From NCBI RefSeq assembly GCF_055900595.2, contig NZ_CM148325.1: a DNA stretch of 64,000 nucleotides; one strand, 5' to 3'. The translations under genes were made by a program, and so were the position numbers. The stretch's first letter is position 1, and each line of letters starts with the position of its first letter. Of this stretch, positions 33,746 to 45,122 are shown in pieces. A model generated the notes under the pieces. The model saw only the letters and a program-made list of their open reading frames with translations, ran no database searches and was not told the DNA's origin.

Positions 33746-34252
33746 TATAATACCATATCCGACATTCTCAACATCTTAAGACATCCATGCAGACTGAATG
33801 TTGGTTTCAGTTTTTCACGGTAAGCATGAATCTTTTCTGTTCAAAAGCAGAGCAGATTTACTCTGGAATTATTTTTCTTACTCCGTATTCTGTACAGCAA
33901 AAACTTGTGCTAACTTTACAGCAAACCATCATAATCAGCGTCTGTAGTCCCATCGCTTTACCCCATGAAAGTGAATCCATATGATGTGAGAGAGATAAGT
34001 CATCGTATCCGGTAAACACTGCTTACTATAACATAAGATCATTCAGTCAGTTTTATCTCTGAACTGACGATTATGGCATGCTCATTTATATGGCTCACAG
34101 AGGAGTGTTATTATCCGTAAGCTTTAATCATCAAATCACATGACCATACCAAACTGGCGCTATATCAGCTCATTTGACGCTCATTCCCTTTAGATTTCTT
34201 TATGTGTTTTTTGTTGATAATTAAAATGTAATATAAATTTAATATTTTCAAA

Positions 34253-35476
34253 TCATAAACACCATTTAAAACCATCATCCTGAACATCATACAACAATAT
34301 ATTTTTACTAAAGCATGAATTGTATACTTCTATTAATTCAGGAAAATTATCAGGATTCACCTTTAAATTCAACTGAATGTTACACTTAATTTCACTCAGC
34401 AGTTCTTCATGCGTGGATTTTATTATCCCTTTATCATAATCTATAAATACACACATGTTTTTCATGAATTCAAACCCTTTTCCTGTATACAGTTTGATGA
34501 ATGCCACAAGAGCAAACATTTCAAGATGCAGCCATAATGCCACGTGAGTTTTTCGCAAAGTATAAAAAATTGAATTCGCCACTTTTTTACTTATTGCTCT
34601 TTTGTACTGTGAGTGCGCCAGATTCAGTAGTGGCAATTCTCTCTCGATAAATGAAAGTGAAAAAGACGGGTAAATTGATGTCGGAAATATTTCAGGTCTT
34701 ATGATATTTTCGATTTCCACCATAAATCTATCCATAGAACGAAAATCATTTTCTTTTTTTATTCTGGTATAGAGACCGCCTTTATTCCTTACTGCGACTT
34801 TTTTTCGTGCTATCCCCCCCAACATTTCCTCTAATTGTTTATTTATCTTCGTATCATTAAATACAACCATTCTTCTTATCATCCTGGGAAGGATGATAAT
34901 ATCAGAGCTTGAATCACTTGAACGGCAATTATTATTGATCCATGCAACTTCAAGTTGAAGTATCGGAACATTAAATTCTCTGGGGTTAATAACTCTCTGA
35001 TATTGTTTTTTGTATGCGTTTTCATTAAGATATTCTCTGCTGTAGAGAAACTTATAGCAATATAATCTGACAATATCCTTTATGTAAGATTTAAATGAGT
35101 CACCTGTAACAGATATATTTTTTCTTCTCAGTAACTCCTGTGTATTGAGCCATTCCCGTGACCGGAGTACTCCATTATGAAGACTTTTTCTTACTTGCTT
35201 TGAATTGCGCAATTGATGTAATATTTTTGCGTCCTCAACAATTCTCTTTCCCGTTTGATTTCTTGCAGCATCTATTACTCTGTCAAATATCTCCCGGTCC
35301 AGACTTTTGTCATATTTACTGATTATACGACAAATATTCCTGACCCGACGGTTCTCTTTATTTCGTTTCCATAACTGATAATGATCATCACATAACCTCA
35401 GGGCATTTGCCTCATCAAATTCTGAAACAGGATTGCTGCATTTTTTATTCCGACAGATACCTTTGTTTTTAGCCAT
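34253..35476 (-). CDS. Hypothetical protein, AT-rich orphan ORF (407 aa), function unknown
   Basis: Long ORF with RBS gggaagaagag upstream of ATG; K/N/I-rich; N-terminal Cys-rich stretch GICRNKKCSNP...LCDDHYQ; no family recognised by eye. Confidence 0.6.
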   Translation of the reverse strand: MAKNKGICRNKKCSNPVSEFDEANALRLCDDHYQLWKRNKENRRVRNICRIISKYDKSLDREIFDRVIDAARNQTGKRIVEDAKILHQLRNSKQVRKSLHNGVLRSREWLNTQELLRRKNISVTGDSFKSYIKDIVRLYCYKFLYSREYLNENAYKKQYQRVINPREFNVPILQLEVAWINNNCRSSDSSSDIIILPRMIRRMVVFNDTKINKQLEEMLGGIARKKVAVRNKGGLYTRIKKENDFRSMDRFMVEIENIIRPEIFPTSIYPSFSLSFIERELPLLNLAHSQYKRAISKKVANSIFYTLRKTHVALWLHLEMFALVAFIKLYTGKGFEFMKNMCVFIDYDKGIIKSTHEELLSEIKCNIQLNLKVNPDNFPELIEVYNSCFSKNILLYDVQDDGFKWCL

Positions 35477-35576
35477 ACTCTTCTTCCCGTCAATGGAAAA
35501 ATTTTCACGTCCATATTACCTGACTGAGAGGCCGGATTAATGTGATCCGGTTCAGTGAAATCAACAGGATAACGGT

Positions 35577-36461
35577 ATGTCATTCAGCCATTCTTCCCTC
35601 TCCGCACACGTAAAGTCACATCTGACCTTTCTTCCTGAAGAAATTCGCCAGAAAATCCTTGAACATCTTCGCAGCGTCATTCAGTACGAACCCGTTATTG
35701 GCATTATGGGTAAATCCGGTGCCGGAAAAAGCAGCCTGTGCAATGCCATTTTTCAGTCCCGTGTCTGCGCCACGCATCCGCTGAACGGCTGCACCCGTCA
35801 GGCTCATCGTCTTACCTTTCAGCCCGGTGAACGAAGAATGACGCTGGTCGATCTGCCCGGCACTGGCGAAACACCACAGCATGATCAGGAATACCGGGCA
35901 CTTTACAGTCAGTTACTGCCCGAACTGGATCTGATTATCTGGATCCTGCGGGCTGATGAACGTGCGTATGCTGCCGACATCGCCATGCATCAGTTTTTAC
36001 TGAATGAAGGTGCCGATCCCTCGCGTTTTCTGTTTGTTCTCAGCCATGCCGATCGCATCCACCCGGCTGAAGAATGGAACAACCAGAGCAGCACGCCATC
36101 CCGTCAGCAGGAACTCTCACTGGCGACGGTGACAGCCCGGGTGGCAACCCTGTTCCCTTCATCATTTCCGGTACTCCCCATAGCCGCTCCTGCCGGCTGG
36201 AATCTTCCGGCATTTGTGTCTCTGATGATCCACGCCCTGCCACCACAGGCAACCAGCGCGGTTTATTCGCATATCCGGAATGAAAAGCGCACTGCGCAGG
36301 ATCAGCAACACGCACAGCAGGCTTTTGGTGACGCCATCGGCCAGAGTTTTGACGCTGCCATTGCCCGGTTCAGCTTTCCGGCCTGGATGCTGCAGCTTCT
36401 GCGCAAAGCCCGTGATCGCATTATCCGCCTGCTGATCACACTGTGGGATCGCCTGTTCTGA
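35577..36461 (+). CDS. YeeP/YkfA/YfjP-family GTPase
   Basis: 294 aa; P-loop GIMGKSGAGKSSLCNAI, DLPGTGE switch region. Confidence 0.8.
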   Translation: MSFSHSSLSAHVKSHLTFLPEEIRQKILEHLRSVIQYEPVIGIMGKSGAGKSSLCNAIFQSRVCATHPLNGCTRQAHRLTFQPGERRMTLVDLPGTGETPQHDQEYRALYSQLLPELDLIIWILRADERAYAADIAMHQFLLNEGADPSRFLFVLSHADRIHPAEEWNNQSSTPSRQQELSLATVTARVATLFPSSFPVLPIAAPAGWNLPAFVSLMIHALPPQATSAVYSHIRNEKRTAQDQQHAQQAFGDAIGQSFDAAIARFSFPAWMLQLLRKARDRIIRLLITLWDRLF

Positions 36462-38816: not shown

Positions 38817-39449
38817 ATGAGCAGAATTATCACCATCACAGTGTATACGCTGGATGAACTTTCCTGCCCGGCACGGGAAAAAGCCCGCGACGGGTACCGT
38901 CAGCATCATGCTGACAGCAACTGGTATGAAAACGTGTATGAAGACTTCAGGGAGGTCTGTGGCATTTTCGGAATTGACCTCCGCCAGCGCGTTTTCCGGC
39001 TCAGCAACGGCAGGTTTATGGAGGAGCCGAGCATCTGGTTCAGCGGATTCTGCAGCCAGGGACGGAGCCTGTTTTGAAGGACGCTGGCACTGGCAGTCAG
39101 CAACAACCAGGAGAGTCCGGGAGTATGCCCCGCAGAACCGTGAGCTTCATCGTATCGCGGATGCCCTGCAGGCGGTGCAGAAACGTAACTTCTGGCAACT
39201 GCAGGCTGAAATCCACCACCGGGGACGTTACTGCCATCCGTTATCACTGTTACCCGGAACAGTCCGACTGGTCAGGCTATGACAGCCGATGCGGAAGCCG
39301 CTGTCAGCGAAGCCCTGCGCGACCTGGCCTTCTGGCTGTACCGTCAACTGGAAAACGAGTACGACCAGATGACCTCAGACGCCGCTGTGGATGAGGCCAT
39401 TCTCATCAATGCATACATCTTCACCGAAACCGGTCAGCGCACCGGCTGA
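38817..39449 (+). pseudogene. Hypothetical gene broken into three overlapping frames (apparent +1/-1 frameshift pair)
   Basis: Frame 0 MSRIITITVYTLDELSCPAREKARDGYRQHHADSNWYENVYEDF...FCSQG; frame +1 ...DGACFEGRWHWQSATTRRVREYAPQNRELHRIADALQAVQKRNFWQLQAEIHHRG...; frame 0 MTADAEAAVSEALRDLAFWLYRQLENEYDQMTSDAAVDEAILINAYIFTETGQRTG*. Confidence 0.4.
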
Positions 39450-39498
39450 CCTGTCATCGTTAAACCATTCTTAACCACTTTTCAGAGAGGATTTTATC

Positions 39499-39867
39499 GT
39501 GTCAGACACACTCTCCGGGATAACTCATCCCGACGACAATCACGACCGCCCCTGGTGGGGGCTTCCCTGCACAGTGAGGCCCTGTTTTGGCGCCCGTCTG
39601 GTGCAGGAGGGTAACCGCCTGCATTACCTTGCCGACCGCGCCGGCATCAGAGGCCGGTTCAGCGATGCGGATGCATACCATCTGGACCAGGCCTTTCCGC
39701 TGCTGATGAAACAACTGGAACTCATGCTCACCAGCGGTGAACTGAATCCCCGCCATCAGCATACCGTCACGCTGTATGCAAAAGGGCTGACCTGCGAAGC
39801 CGACACCCTCGGCAGTTGTGGTTACGTTTATCTGGCTGTTTATCCGACGCCCGAAACGAAAAAGTAA
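39499..39867 (+). CDS. cbeA: CbeA/YeeU-family type IV antitoxin
   Basis: 122 aa, MSDTLSGITHPDDNHDRPWWGLPCTVRPCFGARLVQEGNRLHYLADRAGIRG... Confidence 0.85.
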   Translation: MSDTLSGITHPDDNHDRPWWGLPCTVRPCFGARLVQEGNRLHYLADRAGIRGRFSDADAYHLDQAFPLLMKQLELMLTSGELNPRHQHTVTLYAKGLTCEADTLGSCGYVYLAVYPTPETKK

Positions 39868-39957
39868 ACCACCGGAATAACCTTCTGCTCCGGCCAGGTG
39901 TTTTCACCACGCCACTCTCCCCATAATTTAATCTCTCATATCAGGAAAATCTTCAGT

Positions 39958-40368
39958 ATGAAATTATTACCCGACACACATGTACGGGAGGCATCGTGCT
40001 GCCCGTCTCCCGTCACCATCTGGCAGACACTGCTCATCCGTCTGCTGGACCAGCACTATGGCCTCACACTGAATGACACACCGTTCGCTGATGAACGTGT
40101 GATTGAGCAGCATATTGAGGCCGGCATTTCACTGTGCGATGCGGTGAACTTTCTCGTTGAAAAATACGCACTGGTACGTACCGACCAGCCGGGATTCAGC
40201 GCAGGAGCCCCGTCGCAGTTAATCAACAGCATCGATATTCTCCGGGCCCGCCGGGCAACAGGCCTGATGACACGTAATAACTACAGAATGGTAAATAACA
40301 TTACCCTGGGTAGCATCCGGGGGCGAAACGATGAAACTTTCCCTGACGCTGGAAGCCGACAGCATTAA
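39958..40368 (+). CDS. cbtA: CbtA/YeeV-family type IV toxin
   Basis: [82 protein letters not shown]...; start taken at internal ATG 39958. Confidence 0.85.
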
Positions 40369-40753
40369 CGTGCAGGCACTGAACATGGGGCGCATTGTCG
40401 TTGACATTGATGGTGTAAATCTCGCTGAACTGATTAACAAGGTCGCTGAATACGGTTATTCACTCCGCGTGGTGGATGAACGTGACGCTACCGAAACACC
40501 GGCGACTTCTGCCAGCTCTCATCAGTTGCCGGAAGACAATACAGTGATACAGAGCGTGATGCCATTAACCACTGAAACAGCGCTGGATATCCTCATTGCG
40601 TGGCTGCAGGACAATATCGACTGCGGGTCCGGAATTATTTTCGACAACGATGAGGATAAAACGGATTCGGCAGCACTGCTGCCCTGTATTGAACAGGCCA
40701 GGGAGGATATCCGTACCCTGCACCAACTGCAACTTCTGCACCAGAACCGGTGA
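40331..40753 (+). CDS. YeeW-like protein downstream of the toxin gene
   Basis: 140-aa ORF overlapping the cbtA 3' end; assigned by position only. Confidence 0.45.
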
Positions 40754-40837
40754 ATCTCACTCACCAGACTTCATTCTCCTGACGCCAGCCTGAACAGAGC
40801 TGGCGTTTTCGTTTATAAACAGAAAGGAAACCCCATA

Positions 40838-41623
40838 ATGTCATATATCACAATCCCCCACCCGAACGCGGTCAACGGACATACAGCCGTTATCTGTTCC
40901 ACAAGTATCAGACACATCCTGGCTGTACGAAAGAGTACACTGCTGCAAATCGACACGCTTATCCGGCAACTGACAGAAATCTCAGCACTGACGGAAAGTA
41001 TTGGCGGTAAAGCCGCCCCGGACTGGGCGATGAAACAGAATTTTCGCTGTGGTTGCTGGCTGATGGAGAAACCAGAAACAGCAATGAAAGCCATTACCCG
41101 GAATCTTGACCGCGAAATCTGGCGTAACCTGATGCAGCGTTCCGGGATGCTTTCCTTAATGGATGCACAGGCACGTGATACATGGTACAGGTCACTGGAA
41201 TATGATAATTTTCCGGAAATCAGTGAAGCGAACATTCTGAGCACATTTGAACAACTGCACCAGAATAAGGATGAAGTGTTTGAGCGGGGGGTGATCAACC
41301 TCTTCAAAGGGCTGAGCTGGGATTACAAAACCAACTCACCCTGTAAATTTGGCAGTAAAATTATCGTCAACAATCTGGTGAGGTGGGACCAGTGGGGATT
41401 TCATCTTATCAGTGGAATGCAGGCAGATCGCCTGGCTGACCTGGAAAGAATGTTGCATCTGCTCAGCGGTAAACCGATCCCCGACAACCGGGGAATATCA
41501 CCATTAATCTGGATGACCACATACAGTCCGTTCAGGGTAAAGGACGCTATGAAGATGAGATGTTCATCATTAAATACTTTAAGAAGGGAGCTGCACACAT
41601 CACTTTCAAAAGGCTGGAGCTGA
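40838..41623 (+). CDS. DUF4942-like hypothetical protein
   Basis: 261-aa ORF; family assignment tentative, no search run. Confidence 0.45.
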   Translation: MSYITIPHPNAVNGHTAVICSTSIRHILAVRKSTLLQIDTLIRQLTEISALTESIGGKAAPDWAMKQNFRCGCWLMEKPETAMKAITRNLDREIWRNLMQRSGMLSLMDAQARDTWYRSLEYDNFPEISEANILSTFEQLHQNKDEVFERGVINLFKGLSWDYKTNSPCKFGSKIIVNNLVRWDQWGFHLISGMQADRLADLERMLHLLSGKPIPDNRGISPLIWMTTYSPFRVKDAMKMRCSSLNTLRRELHTSLSKGWS

Positions 41624-41788
41624 TTGACAGAATTAACGATATAATAGCCAGGCACTTTCCTTCTGTGCTCTCAGCCTGACCCCGAGTTTGATTCCCTTTC
41701 GATATCAAAAGGGACTGCGGGTACAAAAGAGGGTACATCTTTCACCAAACCAAACAAAATAAACCAATATCAACATGATAGAAGCATT

Positions 41789-41848: not shown

Positions 41849-43207
41849 CGTTTCAGGACGCCATGTGATTTAAGCGTTCTGCCTTCAAATCATTTCTAAC
41901 AATCTCAACCAAATTTTCCCTAATCGCCAGCATGTTACGGGTATACCCCAGCTCTGGGAAATTTATCCCTAAGCTATGAATGACTCTCACGAAATGTCGT
42001 GCGGCTGCGTGATGCAGTTGAAAATCAAATGATGTCATCAAGAGCTTAACGGTATCGTTGCCGATGACATATATAAAGCACAACCTCGGGCAGAACGCCG
42101 ACTGATGAGATTTTCTGAATGAGAACAAAGAGTAATGTCTCAGTTCGTTTGCTCATGCAAAGACTAATAATCCATGAAAATAGTAAGTGCTCTGAGAAAT
42201 TTTCCATGGATTATTTTCTGAACATTTTTCTTTGGCAAAGATGATGAATTTTGATGATAAGGAATATTACTTCTGGTTCTCAGTAAACTCCTTTCGTAAT
42301 ACTATGTAATCAAGAAGTTTATGGCGGGTAAAAATAACGTCTTACATTCACCAACAATATGTAAATAAACCCATCTATAGATGGTAAAAATAGGTCATGG
42401 CAATTATCATTGAACCATTCCCTTTTCGAATGAGTTTCTATTATGCAACAACCTGTAGTTCGCGTTGGCGAATGGCTTGTTACTCCGTCCATAAACCAAA
42501 TTAGCCGCAATGGGCGTCAACTTACCCTTGAGCCGAGATTAATCGATCTTCTGGTTTTCTTTGCTCAACACAGTGGCGAAGTACTTAGCAGGGATGAACT
42601 TATCGATAATGTCTGGAAGAGAAGTATTGTCACCAATCACGTTGTGACGCAGAGTATCTCAGAACTACGTAAGTCATTAAAAGATAATGATGAAGATAGT
42701 CCTGTCTATATCGCTACTGTACCAAAGCGCGGCTATAAATTAATGGTGCCGGTTATCTGGTACAGCGAAGAAGAGGGAGAGGAAATAATGCTATCTTCGC
42801 CTCCCCCTATACCAGAGGCGGTTCCTGACACAGATTCTCCCTCCCAAAGTCTTAACATTCAAAACACCGCAACACCACCTGAACAATCCCCAGTTAAAAG
42901 CAAACGATTCACTACCTTTTGGGTATGGTTTTTTTTCCTGTTGTCGTTAGGTATCTGTGTAGCACTGGTAGCGTTTTCAAGTCTTGATACACGTCTTCCT
43001 ATGAGCAAATCGCGTATTTTGCTCAATCCACGCGATATTGACATTAATATGGTAAATAAAAGTTGTAACAGCTGGAGTTCCCCGTATCAGCTCTCTTACG
43101 CGATAGGCGTGGGTGATTTGGTGGCGACATCACTTAACACCTTCTCCACCTTGGTGATGCTGCCAACTTACTGATTTAGTGTATGATGGTGTTTTTGAGG
43201 TGCTCCA

Positions 43208-43483
43208 GTGGCTTCTGTTTCTATCAGCTGTCCCTCCTGTTCAGCTACTGACGGGGTGGTGCGTAACGGCAAAAGCACCGCCGGACATCAGCGCTATCTC
43301 TGCTCTCACTGCCGTAAAACATGGCAACTGCAGTTCACTTACACCGCTTCTCAACCCGGTACGCACCAGAAAATCATTGATATGGCCATGAATGGCGTTG
43401 GATGCCGGGCAACTGCCCGCATTATGGGCGTTGGCCTCAACACGATTTTACGTCACTTAAAAAACTCAGGCCGCAGTCGGTAA
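43208..43483 (+). CDS. insA: IS1 InsA
   Basis: [91 protein letters not shown]. Confidence 0.9.
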
Positions 43484-43905
43484 CCTCGCGCATACAGCCG
43501 GGCAGTGACGTCATCGTCTGTGCGGAAATGGACGAACAGTGGGGCTATGTCGGGGCTAAATCGCGCCAGCGCTGGCTGTTTTACGCGTATGACAGGCTCC
43601 GGAAGACGGTTGTTGCGCACGTATTCGGTGAACGCACTATGGCGACGCTGGGGCGTCTTATGAGCCTGCTGTCACCCTTTGACGTGGTGATATGGATGAC
43701 GGATGGCTGGCCGCTGTATGAATCCCGCCTGAAGGGAAAGCTGCACGTAATCAGCAAGCGATATACGCAGCGAATTGAGCGGCATAACCTGAATCTGAGG
43801 CAGCACCTGGCACGGCTGGGACGGAAGTCGCTGTCGTTCTCAAAATCGGTGGAGCTGCATGACAAAGTCATCGGGCATTATCTGAACATAAAACACTATC
43901 AATAA
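43402..43905 (+). CDS. insB: IS1 InsB frame (expressed as InsAB' by -1 frameshift)
   Basis: ...[71 protein letters not shown]... Confidence 0.8.
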
Positions 43906-45122
43906 GTTGGAGTCATTACCCTCCACCTTTATGGTGCATGACAAAATCAACTACAACATTGATGAACCGAGCAGTTCCGGTAAAACATTATCTATTGCGT
44001 TTGTTAATCAGCGCCAATACCGTGCTCAACAATGCTTTATGTCGGTAAAATTGGTAGACAATGCAGATGGTTCAACCATGCTGGATAAACGTTATGTCAT
44101 CACTAACGGTAATCAGCTGGCGATTCAAAATGATTTACTGGAGAGTTTATCAAAAGCGTTAAACCAACCGTGGCCACAACGAATGCAGGAGATGCTCCAG
44201 CAAATTTTGCCTCATCGTGGTGCGTTATTAACTAATTTTTATCAGGCACATGATTATTTACTGCATGGCGATGATAAATCATTGAACCGTGCCAGTGAAT
44301 TACTAGGTGAGATTGTTCAATCATCCCCCGAATTTACCTACGCGAGAGCAGAAAAAGCATTAGTTGATATCGTGCGCCATTCTCAACATCCTTTAGATGA
44401 AAAACAATTAGCAGCACTGAATACAGAAATAGATAACATTGTTACACTGCCGGAATTGAACAACCTGTCCATTATATATCAAATAAAAGCGGTCAGTGCT
44501 CTGGTAAAAGGTAAAACAGATGAGTCTTACCAGGCGATAAATACTGGCATTGATCTTGAAATGTCCTGGCTAAATTATGTGTTGCTTGGCAAGGTTTATG
44601 AAATGAAGGGGATGAACCGGGAAGCAGCTGATGCATATCTCACCGCCTTTAATTTACGCCCAGGGGCAAACACCCTTTACTGGATTGAAAATGGTATATT
44701 CCAGACTTCTGTTCCTTATGTTGTACCTTATCTCGACAAATTTCTCGCCTCAGAATAAGTGACTCCCGGGTTGACTCATGCTCGGGAATATTTGTTGTTG
44801 ATTTTTTGTATGTTATTGTTGGTATAATATGTTGCGGCAATTTATTTGCCGCATAATTTTTATCACATAAATTTAACCATGGAATATTCTGCAATCTATT
44901 GTAAACATTGAATGTTTATCTTTTCATGATATCAACTTGCGATCCTGATGTGTTAATAAAAAACCTCAAGTTCTCACTTACAGAAACTTTTGTGTTATTT
45001 CACCTAATCTTTAGGATTAATCTTTTTTTTTGAGTAATCTTGTCGCCAGTTTGGTCTGGTCAGTAAATAGTTACGCATCATGACCCGGACTCCAAATTCA
45101 AAAATGAAATTAGGAGAAGAGC

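What the first reader, a model, noticed from the sequence alone, without database searches (positions are those of the whole stretch)
34253..35476. Orphan AT-rich 407-aa ORF in the variable cargo slot of a CP4-57-like element
The ORF sits between the YfjJ-like genes and the yfjP-like GTPase gene. In E. coli K-12 CP4-57 the equivalent slot, as I recall it, carries yfjK-yfjL-yfjM and the anti-phage RnlA/RnlB toxin-antitoxin pair, so it is a cargo position. The gene is visibly AT-rich against GC-richer neighbours, has its own RBS, and is divergent from the GTPase gene, with a short palindrome ccggattaatgtgatccgg (35532-35550) in the shared promoter region. The product is K/N/I-rich with an N-terminal Cys/His cluster (C-x4-C ... 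C-x2-H). I cannot place it in any family by eye.
Basis: partly seen in the sequence, partly recalled or inferred. Interest (0 to 1): 0.7.

Follow-up and report, generated by a model that had tools for sequence, protein, structure and literature searches.

The report
Hypervariable HNH-derived zinc-finger island gene
The AT-rich 407-codon gene is real, but it is not random cargo: it is one version of an unnamed, fast-changing gene, descended from a DNA-cutting (HNH) enzyme that has lost its cutting residues, found at the same spot in a common family of E. coli, Salmonella, Klebsiella and Citrobacter genomic islands.

Summary
In detail: the ORF at 34253-35476(-), its AT-richness, its CCCH cluster and the palindrome at 35532-35550 are all exact.

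- **Family:** the gene is not an orphan. About 18% of complete E. coli genomes carry this type. Two remote types (376 aa, ~314 aa) add 463 and 741 genomes, the ~314-aa link being weaker. All are annotated "hypothetical". None were found in phage or plasmid collections.
- **Position:** it is not free cargo. Homologs of 27-35% identity in Klebsiella, Citrobacter and Salmonella sit in the same place, divergent from the yfjP-like GTPase operon. In E. coli islands with 88-95% identical flanks, a 1.6-2.3 kb cassette (33876-35501) is swapped between types. No genome had an empty junction; one carried a deletion derivative.
- **Ancestry:** curated libraries and PDB fold searches find nothing. A remote family member matches phage HNH endonuclease profiles. 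This lineage has lost the catalytic signature (His to W179).
- **Selection:** the gene is under purifying selection (dN/dS 0.28; zinc knuckle 0.03).

My best reading is a non-cutting nucleic-acid binder acting at a conflict interface. The function is unproven. It is a worthwhile but not startling lead.

The parts
34253..35476 (-). Gene 'X', 407-aa type: a basic (pI 9.6), AT-rich protein with a zinc knuckle, a helical linker, a degenerate HNH-like beta-beta-alpha module and a C-terminal helical domain
   Evidence: ORF. dN/dS 0.28. AF2 model with pLDDT 79 and pTM 0.68. Annotated hypothetical WP_059328212.1.
35381..35455 (-). CCCH zinc knuckle, residues C8, C13, C29, H32
   Evidence: Invariant in all zinc-finger-bearing relatives and duplicated in P0018/P0039. 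dN/dS of residues 1-45 is 0.03.
34820..34954 (-). Degenerate HNH-like beta-beta-alpha module, residues 175-219. W179 stands where remote homologs have the catalytic His, D192 for Asn and R201 for Asn.
   Evidence: Strands 175-179 and 193-197 plus helix 198-219 appear in two AF2 models. A profile of 407-like members aligns LEVaf..D..P..iRR with LEISH..N..P..INR of P0038. The P0038 fragment hits five HNH/endonuclease VII PHROGs.
34256..34780 (-). C-terminal helical domain, residues 233-407, with motifs GGLY, LPLxxLA..R, LExFA and YNSxFS
33876..35501 (.). Swappable cassette: X with its own 25-bp leader and about 360 bp of 3' sequence, bounded by sequence conserved between islands
   Evidence: blastn breakpoints against L008, L009 and L010. 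Flanks are 88-95% identical whatever the X type.
35502..35576 (.). Conserved divergent regulatory region. ATATTACC (35513-35520) is invariant across genera and resembles a -10 element.
   Evidence: Alignment A5. Sequence.
35532..35550 (+). Palindrome/hairpin CCGGAT-N7-ATCCGG between the -10-like element and the GTPase start codon
   Evidence: Identical in E. coli loci carrying 407, 376 or 316-aa X types. Replaced by a different palindrome, CCTGGC..GCCAGG, in Citrobacter. RNA fold z-scores are -2.2 and -2.85; no hairpin in Klebsiella.
35577..36461 (+). YfjP-family small GTPase, first gene of the conserved operon (GTPase, DUF932, antirestriction, RadC/JAB, CbeA/CbtA)
   Evidence: Annotation. NCBIfam Era/Der-like P-loop hits. 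Weak LeoBC match.
31944..32675 (-). Inovirus Gp2/YfjJ-like gene, the left-hand conserved neighbour
   Evidence: Annotation. 89-93% protein identity across E. coli loci.
33030..33875 (.). Conserved AT-rich stretch without ORFs, lying between the Gp2-like gene and the cassette
   Evidence: Composition. 86-90% identical in L008 and L010. Degenerate repeats. No Rfam hit.

Best explanation
**Shown**
- ORF407 is one allelic type of a position-fixed but hypervariable gene ('X').
- X belongs to the backbone of CP4-57/CP4-6-like integrative islands of Enterobacteriaceae.
- It sits at the divergent junction between the alpA/yfjJ module and the yfjP-GTPase operon.
- It lies inside a 1.6-2.3 kb cassette that is exchanged between otherwise near-identical islands.
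- The family descends from zinc-finger HNH endonucleases.
- In this lineage the catalytic His, the GG loop and both Asn residues are replaced (W179, D192, R201), while the gene stays under purifying selection.

**Inferred**
- The protein no longer cuts.
- It binds nucleic acid through the strongly constrained zinc knuckle and the basic N-terminal half (pI about 10).
- It uses the conserved C-terminal helical domain to contact a partner.
- The adjacent promoter/hairpin region does not change with X type. What X recognises is therefore more likely something variable and external, such as an incoming phage or plasmid, or a competing element, than the island's own conserved operator.
- X would then act as a binding or blocking specificity module in conflict between mobile elements.
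For: **Fixed position**
- Same position and orientation in Klebsiella, Citrobacter, Salmonella and an unassigned contig, at 27-35% identity. The neighbouring GTPase is 52-68% identical and AlpA 66-73%.
- The gene is still next to AlpA and the GTPase after a rearrangement (L006).
- It faces the WYL-regulator operon where the GTPase is missing.

**Alternative types in E. coli**
- The 376-aa occupant is a remote homolog (85 bits).
- The 316-aa occupant is a probable remote homolog (26 bits with shared motifs).
- Cassette boundaries and independence from the flanks.

**Retention and prevalence**
- No empty site in 5426 genomes and one deletion derivative.
- Prevalence: 974, 463 and 741 genomes.

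**HNH ancestry and loss of the active site**
- A profile built only from 407-like members finds P0038 at E 3e-24 and P0034 at E 4e-20, with Z set to 1.84e9.
- P0038 matches phrog_8660 'HNH endonuclease' at E 8.8e-7. Its central fragment alone hits five HNH/endonuclease VII families.
- The predicted beta-beta-alpha lies at exactly that motif.
- Replacements in the catalytic positions.

**Selection and composition**
- dN/dS is 0.28 overall and 0.03 in the zinc knuckle.
- Basic composition.
- The intergenic region is identical across X types.
Against: - No binding, partner or phenotype has been measured.
- The HNH link rests on one remote branch. The query itself hits no HNH profile.
- The ~314-aa type lacks the zinc knuckle altogether, so the knuckle cannot be essential to the family's common function.
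- Up to four copies of the same type coexist in one genome. This argues against an exclusion or immunity role between sister islands.
- Divergent placement next to a conserved promoter is also what a local regulator would look like.
Confidence: 0.45

Rival explanations
1. X is a self-contained anti-phage defence gene carried as cargo in a hotspot, acting like a single-gene abortive-infection or nuclease effector.
For: - K-12 CP4-57 carries AbpAB and RnlAB between yfjJ and yfjP.
- X has nuclease ancestry.
- It is AT-rich.
- Deeply diverged alleles lie between conserved flanks.
- Related islands carry R-M and Abi-like genes nearby.
Against: - No PADLOC hit for any of ten family members.
- The catalytic HNH residues are lost.
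- The position is occupied by homologs across four genera rather than by unrelated systems.
- No empty sites.
- No X gene in phages or plasmids, where defence cargo often travels.
Confidence: 0.2
2. X is a local transcription factor, either a repressor or an activator, of the divergently transcribed GTPase-DUF932-antirestriction operon, or of its own promoter. It would bind the conserved intergenic region.
For: - Divergent arrangement with a 100-bp shared region that holds an invariant -10-like element and a palindrome.
- Zinc knuckle and basic N-terminal half.
- The arrangement is kept in Salmonella, Klebsiella and Citrobacter.
Against: - The intergenic region and palindrome are identical in islands whose X proteins share under 20% identity, or lack the zinc knuckle. 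A sequence-specific regulator and its operator should co-vary.
- In L006 the gene is co-directional with the GTPase gene.
- The palindrome is absent in Klebsiella.
Confidence: 0.15
3. X is a free-standing HNH homing-endonuclease gene that invaded an intergenic site and is now decaying: a selfish remnant with no function for the island.
For: - HNH plus zinc-finger ancestry.
- Sharp cassette boundaries in an intergenic site.
- AT-richness.
- Loss of catalytic residues in most lineages.
Against: - Purifying selection in the catalytically dead lineage, very strong in the zinc knuckle.
- A conserved 170-residue C-terminal domain that homing enzymes do not have.
- Synteny is kept down to 27% identity.
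- No empty target sites in 5426 genomes.
Confidence: 0.08
4. X is still an active nuclease that uses a non-canonical active site, for example E176, D192 and R201/R202.
For: - E176 is invariant across the zinc-finger-bearing types aligned in A2, but is His in the 376-aa type.
- The IRR motif is nearly invariant, and D192 is conserved in the 407-like branch.
Against: - No general-base His. The position varies freely (W/F/Y/K/Q/E/H), even between close 314-type relatives.
- No structural match to any nuclease.
Confidence: 0.05

Closest known systems
Phage-type zinc-finger HNH endonucleases (PHROG phrog_8660 and phrog_1271; endonuclease VII phrog_1035)
   Same: - The remote family member P0038 matches these profiles over its second zinc finger and its LEISH...N...INR motif.
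- The query has a predicted beta-beta-alpha at the homologous place.
- The N-terminal Cx4C...CxxH(Y/F) knuckle resembles, from my memory of phage HNH proteins, the CxxxxC...LCxxHY modules found at their N-termini. It gave only a weak hit (phrog_5351, E 0.085).
   Different: - The catalytic His, the GG loop and both Asn residues are replaced in the query (W179, D192, R201).
- No HNH profile or solved HNH structure is retrieved by the query.
- There is an extra conserved C-terminal helical domain of about 170 residues.
- The family is not found in 50,697 phage records.
RnlA/RnlB and AbpA/AbpB of E. coli K-12 CP4-57, occupants of the yfjJ-yfjP interval
   Same: They lie between a YfjJ-like gene and a YfjP-like GTPase gene of a related island.
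   Different: - No sequence similarity (RnlA E 1.2) and no PADLOC hit.
- K-12's element is a distant relative and its yfjP upstream region is unrelated.
- X is conserved in position across genera, unlike cargo.
Stl master repressors of staphylococcal pathogenicity islands (an analogy from established knowledge, not tested)
   Same: Both are divergently transcribed from the island's main operon, are highly divergent between related islands, and combine a DNA-binding N-terminus with a variable remainder.
   Different: - No homology.
- For X the neighbouring regulatory DNA does not vary with the protein type.
- No helper phage or derepression is known for these islands.

Membership tests
HNH (beta-beta-alpha-Me) endonuclease | Two strands followed by a helix at the motif | tested here: met
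   AF2 places strands at 175-179 and 193-197 and a helix at 198-219, in both the full-length and the domain model. This is a prediction only.
HNH (beta-beta-alpha-Me) endonuclease | Catalytic His at the end of strand 1 | tested here: not met
   W179 in the query. The position is W/F/Y/K/Q/E in most relatives and His only in P0034, P0038 and some 314-aa members.
HNH (beta-beta-alpha-Me) endonuclease | Structural Asn before strand 2 and metal-binding Asn/His in the helix | tested here: not met
   D192 and R201 in the query, against N and N in P0034 and P0038.
HNH (beta-beta-alpha-Me) endonuclease | Significant match to an HNH profile | tested here: not met
   The query gets no HNH hit in Pfam, NCBIfam or PHROGs. 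Its remote homolog P0038 does: phrog_8660 at E 8.8e-7, or 4.2e-4 for the fragment. The case is therefore ancestry, not membership.
HNH (beta-beta-alpha-Me) endonuclease | Structural similarity to a solved HNH nuclease | tested here: not met
Known anti-phage defence systems (PADLOC-DB v2) | Profile match to a defence protein family | tested here: not met
   No hit for the query at E up to 1. For nine relatives the only hit is a single chance-level DpdJ match, E 0.031.
Known anti-phage defence systems (PADLOC-DB v2) | Phage-resistance phenotype | not testable with these tools
   Requires cloning and plaque assays.
Defence or cargo hotspot occupant | The position holds unrelated genes, or is empty, in related elements | tested here: not met
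   - In all E. coli, Klebsiella, Citrobacter and Salmonella loci examined the position holds a superfamily member.
- Of 5426 genomes, none covered at least 80% of an artificial empty junction.
- The closest, WB61, is a deletion derivative of a 376-type locus.
- K-12 CP4-57 is the exception.
Backbone gene of CP4-57/CP4-6-like islands | Conserved position and orientation relative to backbone genes across genera | tested here: met
   The order GTPase, then divergent X, then AlpA/YfjJ holds in L002, L004, L007, L017-L019 and L020-L023. L006 and L013 are variants.
RnlA/LsoA toxin family | Sequence or fold similarity to RnlA | tested here: not met
Free-standing homing endonuclease gene | Intact nuclease motif and presence/absence polymorphism at the target site | tested here: not met
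   The motif is degenerate and there are no empty sites.
Local regulator with cognate operator | Operator co-varies with the DNA-binding protein | tested here: not met
   The intergenic region and palindrome are identical in loci with the 407, 376 and 316-aa types.

The most novel reading that the evidence does not exclude
X is a new kind of single-gene specificity module of chromosomal islands. It would be a pseudo-nuclease, a dead HNH domain with a zinc knuckle, whose swappable allelic types each recognise a different invading phage or plasmid component. The target could be DNA or a terminase, HNH or portal partner. X would then block the invader or couple it to the island's GTPase/anti-restriction operon, making it functionally analogous to the variable Stl sensors of SaPIs but unrelated to them.
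Probability: 0.2. Interest if true: 0.7.

Novelty: new variant of a known kind. Interest (0 to 1): 0.42.

Why it matters
- **Reach:** islands of this type sit in a large share of E. coli, Salmonella and Klebsiella genomes and carry virulence and defence cargo. Together, the three E. coli types of X were found in 974, 463 and 741 of 5426 complete genomes (genome sets may overlap), yet every copy is annotated "hypothetical".
- **Signature:** a gene that is fixed in place, almost never lost, under purifying selection within types, and yet exchanged between types sharing under 20% identity has the signature of a conflict or specificity determinant.
- **Payoff:** knowing its function would explain part of how these islands interact with phages, plasmids or each other. 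It would also add an example of a nuclease fold re-used as a non-catalytic binder.
- **Caveat for island scans:** an AT-rich unannotated gene in a K-12 'cargo' interval is not necessarily cargo.

Tried and rejected
**Curated libraries, no usable hit**
- Pfam on the query, on 15 relatives and on the zinc knuckle alone.
- NCBIfam, PADLOC and PHROGs on the query.

**Solved structures, nothing**
- PDB sequence profiles for the whole family, the zinc knuckle and the P0034/P0038 motif fragments.
- Foldseek against AFDB50 returns only uncharacterised Enterobacterales relatives. Three of them carry an automatic 'HNH endonuclease' name and one a 'Reverse transcriptase' name that nothing else supports.

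**Other searches, negative**
- Rfam on the locus.
- tblastn against phages and plasmids.
- K-12 CP4-57 and CP4-6 contain no family member. YfjH, a 318-aa gene divergent from alpA, was tested and is unrelated.
- Literature searches for yfjP/yeeP/ykfA, for the island gene set and for the protein accessions found nothing on this gene.

**Ideas rejected**
- A small downstream partner ORF (toxin-antitoxin-like). orf53 is broken in the sister allele, and the 35-codon ORF diverges as non-coding DNA would.
- Co-evolution with the GTPase. GTPase identity is independent of X type.

**Technical failures**
- Protein comparison failed on alignment-versus-sequence input, so local HMMER was used instead.
With A1 it found only two loci among 100,044 species representatives.

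Full report
**1. The observation**

- It is strongly AT-rich, with GC 0.339 and GC3 0.311. The GTPase gene is at 0.55 and the Gp2/YfjJ-like gene at 0.53.
- It is divergent from a YfjP-like GTPase gene (35577-36461) across 100 bp.
- The palindrome CCGGATTAATGTGATCCGG lies exactly at 35532-35550.
- The protein is K/N/I-rich and basic, with pI 9.6.
- It begins with C8-x4-C13-x15-C29-x2-H32.
- The window is close to 100% identical to E. coli GPEC389 over most of its length, apart from two IS insertions and a 97.8% segment beyond cadC. There RefSeq calls the gene 'hypothetical protein' WP_059328212.1.
- Against the 87%-identical allele, dN/dS is 0.28, like the neighbours at 0.19 and 0.35. It is therefore a real gene under selection.

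**2. Not an orphan**

- Megablast finds this gene in 974 of 5426 complete E. coli genomes, with up to four copies per genome. Thirty-five genomes are at 99% or above, and 933 carry a 90-95% allele.
- A phmmer scan of 1.84 billion representative proteins finds only 26 hits. About ten are full-length relatives at 24-37% identity.
- These come from Klebsiella, Citrobacter, Salmonella and unassigned enterobacterial contigs.
- All are named 'hypothetical'.
- tblastn finds none in 50,697 phage records or 72,556 plasmid records.

**3. Not free cargo**

The distant homologs sit in the same place.
- In Klebsiella michiganensis, Citrobacter, Salmonella and contig L007 the gene is immediately divergent from the YfjP-like GTPase gene, with a gap of 95-137 bp. 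AlpA and a YfjJ-like gene follow it.
- Its identity to the query is 27-35% where the GTPase is 52-68% and AlpA 66-73%.
- In L006 the order is AlpA, X, GTPase on one strand, so the linkage survives rearrangement.
- In L013 and L014 the GTPase gene is missing, and X faces the WYL-regulator gene that normally follows it.

Within E. coli, islands with 88-95% identical flanks carry other occupants at this position.
- One is a 376-aa protein, a full-length remote homolog at 85 bits to the family profile.
- Another is a protein of about 314 aa that lacks the zinc knuckle. It scores only 26 bits, but it shares the W-x-(D/N)-TQ, LY, (L/V)EV, P-x-x-IRR-x-V and G(G/S)LY motifs and the position. I treat it as a probable homolog.
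- These two types occur in 463 and 741 genomes.

The cassette has sharp boundaries.
- Breakpoints are at about 33876/33890 and 35501. Everything to the left and right aligns at 86-95% whatever the X type.
- An artificial 'empty junction' query found no genome out of 5426 covering at least 80% of it. The nearest, strain WB61, is a deletion derivative of a 376-type locus that still keeps that cassette's leader.
- K-12 CP4-57 and CP4-6 have no family member. CP4-57 is too diverged for its yfjP upstream region to be compared.

The 'slot' analogy is therefore positionally right, but it does not describe this island lineage. Here the position holds a backbone gene with swappable allelic types.

**4. 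What the protein is**

Curated libraries give nothing for the query.

AlphaFold2 with a 15-sequence alignment gives pLDDT 79 and pTM 0.68. The model contains:
- a zinc knuckle at residues 1-33;
- long low-confidence helices to about residue 93;
- a helical segment at 101-146;
- two strands (175-179 and 193-197) followed by helix 198-219;
- a helical domain at 233-405.

Fold searches add little.
- Foldseek against AFDB50 finds only uncharacterised Enterobacterales proteins.

The informative link comes from the remotest branch.
- P0034 and P0038 were retrieved at E 4e-20 and 3e-24 by a profile built only from 407-like members, at the full database size.
- At the beta-beta-alpha they carry LE(V/I)SH-x-YPN-x-KGG-x5-N-x4-P-x2-IN.
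- P0038 matches phrog_8660 'HNH endonuclease' at E 8.8e-7. Its central fragment without zinc fingers hits five families, all HNH or endonuclease VII, the best at 4.2e-4.
- A weak Cas9d hit covers the same residues.

In the query the aligned positions are W179 for the catalytic His, no GG loop, D192 for Asn and R201 for Asn.
- The His position is W/F/Y/K/Q/E in most members. It is H/Q-polymorphic even among close 314-aa proteins.
- The query's own fragment hits no HNH profile.

I therefore call the family HNH-derived, not a member. In this lineage it is a pseudo-nuclease. Selection is uneven across the protein:

| Region | Residues | dN/dS |
|---|---|---|
| Zinc knuckle | 1-45 | 0.03 |
| Part of C-terminal domain | 233-310 | 0.14 |
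| Linker | 46-100 | ~0.7 |
| Degenerate loop region | 161-232 | ~0.7 |

**5. The intergenic region**

- Across all loci an ATATTACC element (35513-35520) is invariant and resembles a -10 hexamer.
- The palindrome follows it.
- The palindrome is identical in E. coli loci with the 407, 376 or 316-aa types.
- In Citrobacter a different palindrome occupies the same place. L007 has a weaker one, and Klebsiella has none.
- It therefore tracks the GTPase side, not the X type. This argues against X being its sequence-specific ligand.

**6. How it most likely works**

Shown:
- position-fixed, hypervariable, purifying selection within a type;
- HNH ancestry with loss of the active site;
- a constrained zinc knuckle and a basic N-terminal half;
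- chromosomal islands only.

Inferred:
- X is a non-cutting nucleic-acid binder. Its conserved C-terminal domain contacts a partner.
- Its allelic diversity reflects a variable external target, in conflict between mobile elements, rather than the conserved neighbouring promoter.
- Confidence is about 0.45 for this package. The descriptive half is much firmer than the functional half.

Rivals:
- an autonomous defence gene (0.2);
- a local regulator (0.15);
- a decaying homing-endonuclease gene (0.08);
- a non-canonical active nuclease (0.05).

**7. Novelty and score**

The family is unnamed and uncharacterised, and most of its length has no recognisable fold. Its one identifiable root, HNH plus zinc finger, is a well-known kind, and no function is shown. 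I rate it a new variant of a known kind, with interest about 0.4. It is a good, cheap experimental lead because of its prevalence and its conflict-like evolution, but it is not a demonstrated new system.

Noticed in passing
window 43153-43920: An IS1 copy, 98.8% identical to K-12 IS1B, interrupts cadC. It is absent from the otherwise near-identical strain GPEC389. cadB and cadA downstream look intact by ORF length.
   Followed up: partly
window 25063-26372: An extra IS3-family element relative to GPEC389. It carries one of the two ALIL pseudoknot hits, at 25398-25514.
   Followed up: partly
window 31015-31587 (-): The 190-aa hypothetical gene between the Gp2-like gene and alpA has one internal stop in the window but is intact in GPEC389.
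   Followed up: partly
window 32781-33029 (+): The 82-aa 'hypothetical protein' annotated in RefSeq carries stop codons in three related loci (L008, L009, L011). It is probably not a gene.
   Followed up: yes
window 33030-33875: About 0.85 kb of AT-rich DNA without ORFs is conserved at 86-90% between islands. It holds degenerate repeats (AACGTCAG, CTCAGGAAAG) at 33246-33476, next to the Gp2/Rep-like gene. It may be an origin or other cis site. No Rfam hit.
   Followed up: partly
window 35577-36461 (+): Residues 183-284 of the YfjP-like GTPase weakly match the PADLOC LeoBC profile (Eleos/dynamin-like defence), E 3.8e-7, over part of the profile only.
   Followed up: no
L010 3276-4064; L020-L023 8942-9751: The ~314-aa type of X is always followed by a convergent 262-269-aa gene that overlaps it by 4 bp. 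That gene has a faint ribbon-helix-helix C-terminus (Pfam RHH_1, E 0.14). It may be a partner specific to the type lacking a zinc finger.
   Followed up: partly
L024 (E. coli WB61) 2649-3909: This is the only X-less locus found. The deletion removes the 376-type coding sequence and its 3' region (L008 coordinates 2772-4243) and leaves the cassette leader.
   Followed up: yes
window 29435-29943 and 39000-41700 (by identity to L001): Several island genes are annotated as frameshifted or truncated in the near-identical GPEC389 record: ProQ/FinO-like, CbtA toxin, the YeeU-adjacent antitoxin, DUF4942 and the integrase remnant next to cadC. No tRNA gene lies in the window. The island looks immobilised and decaying, while X stays intact.
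   Followed up: no
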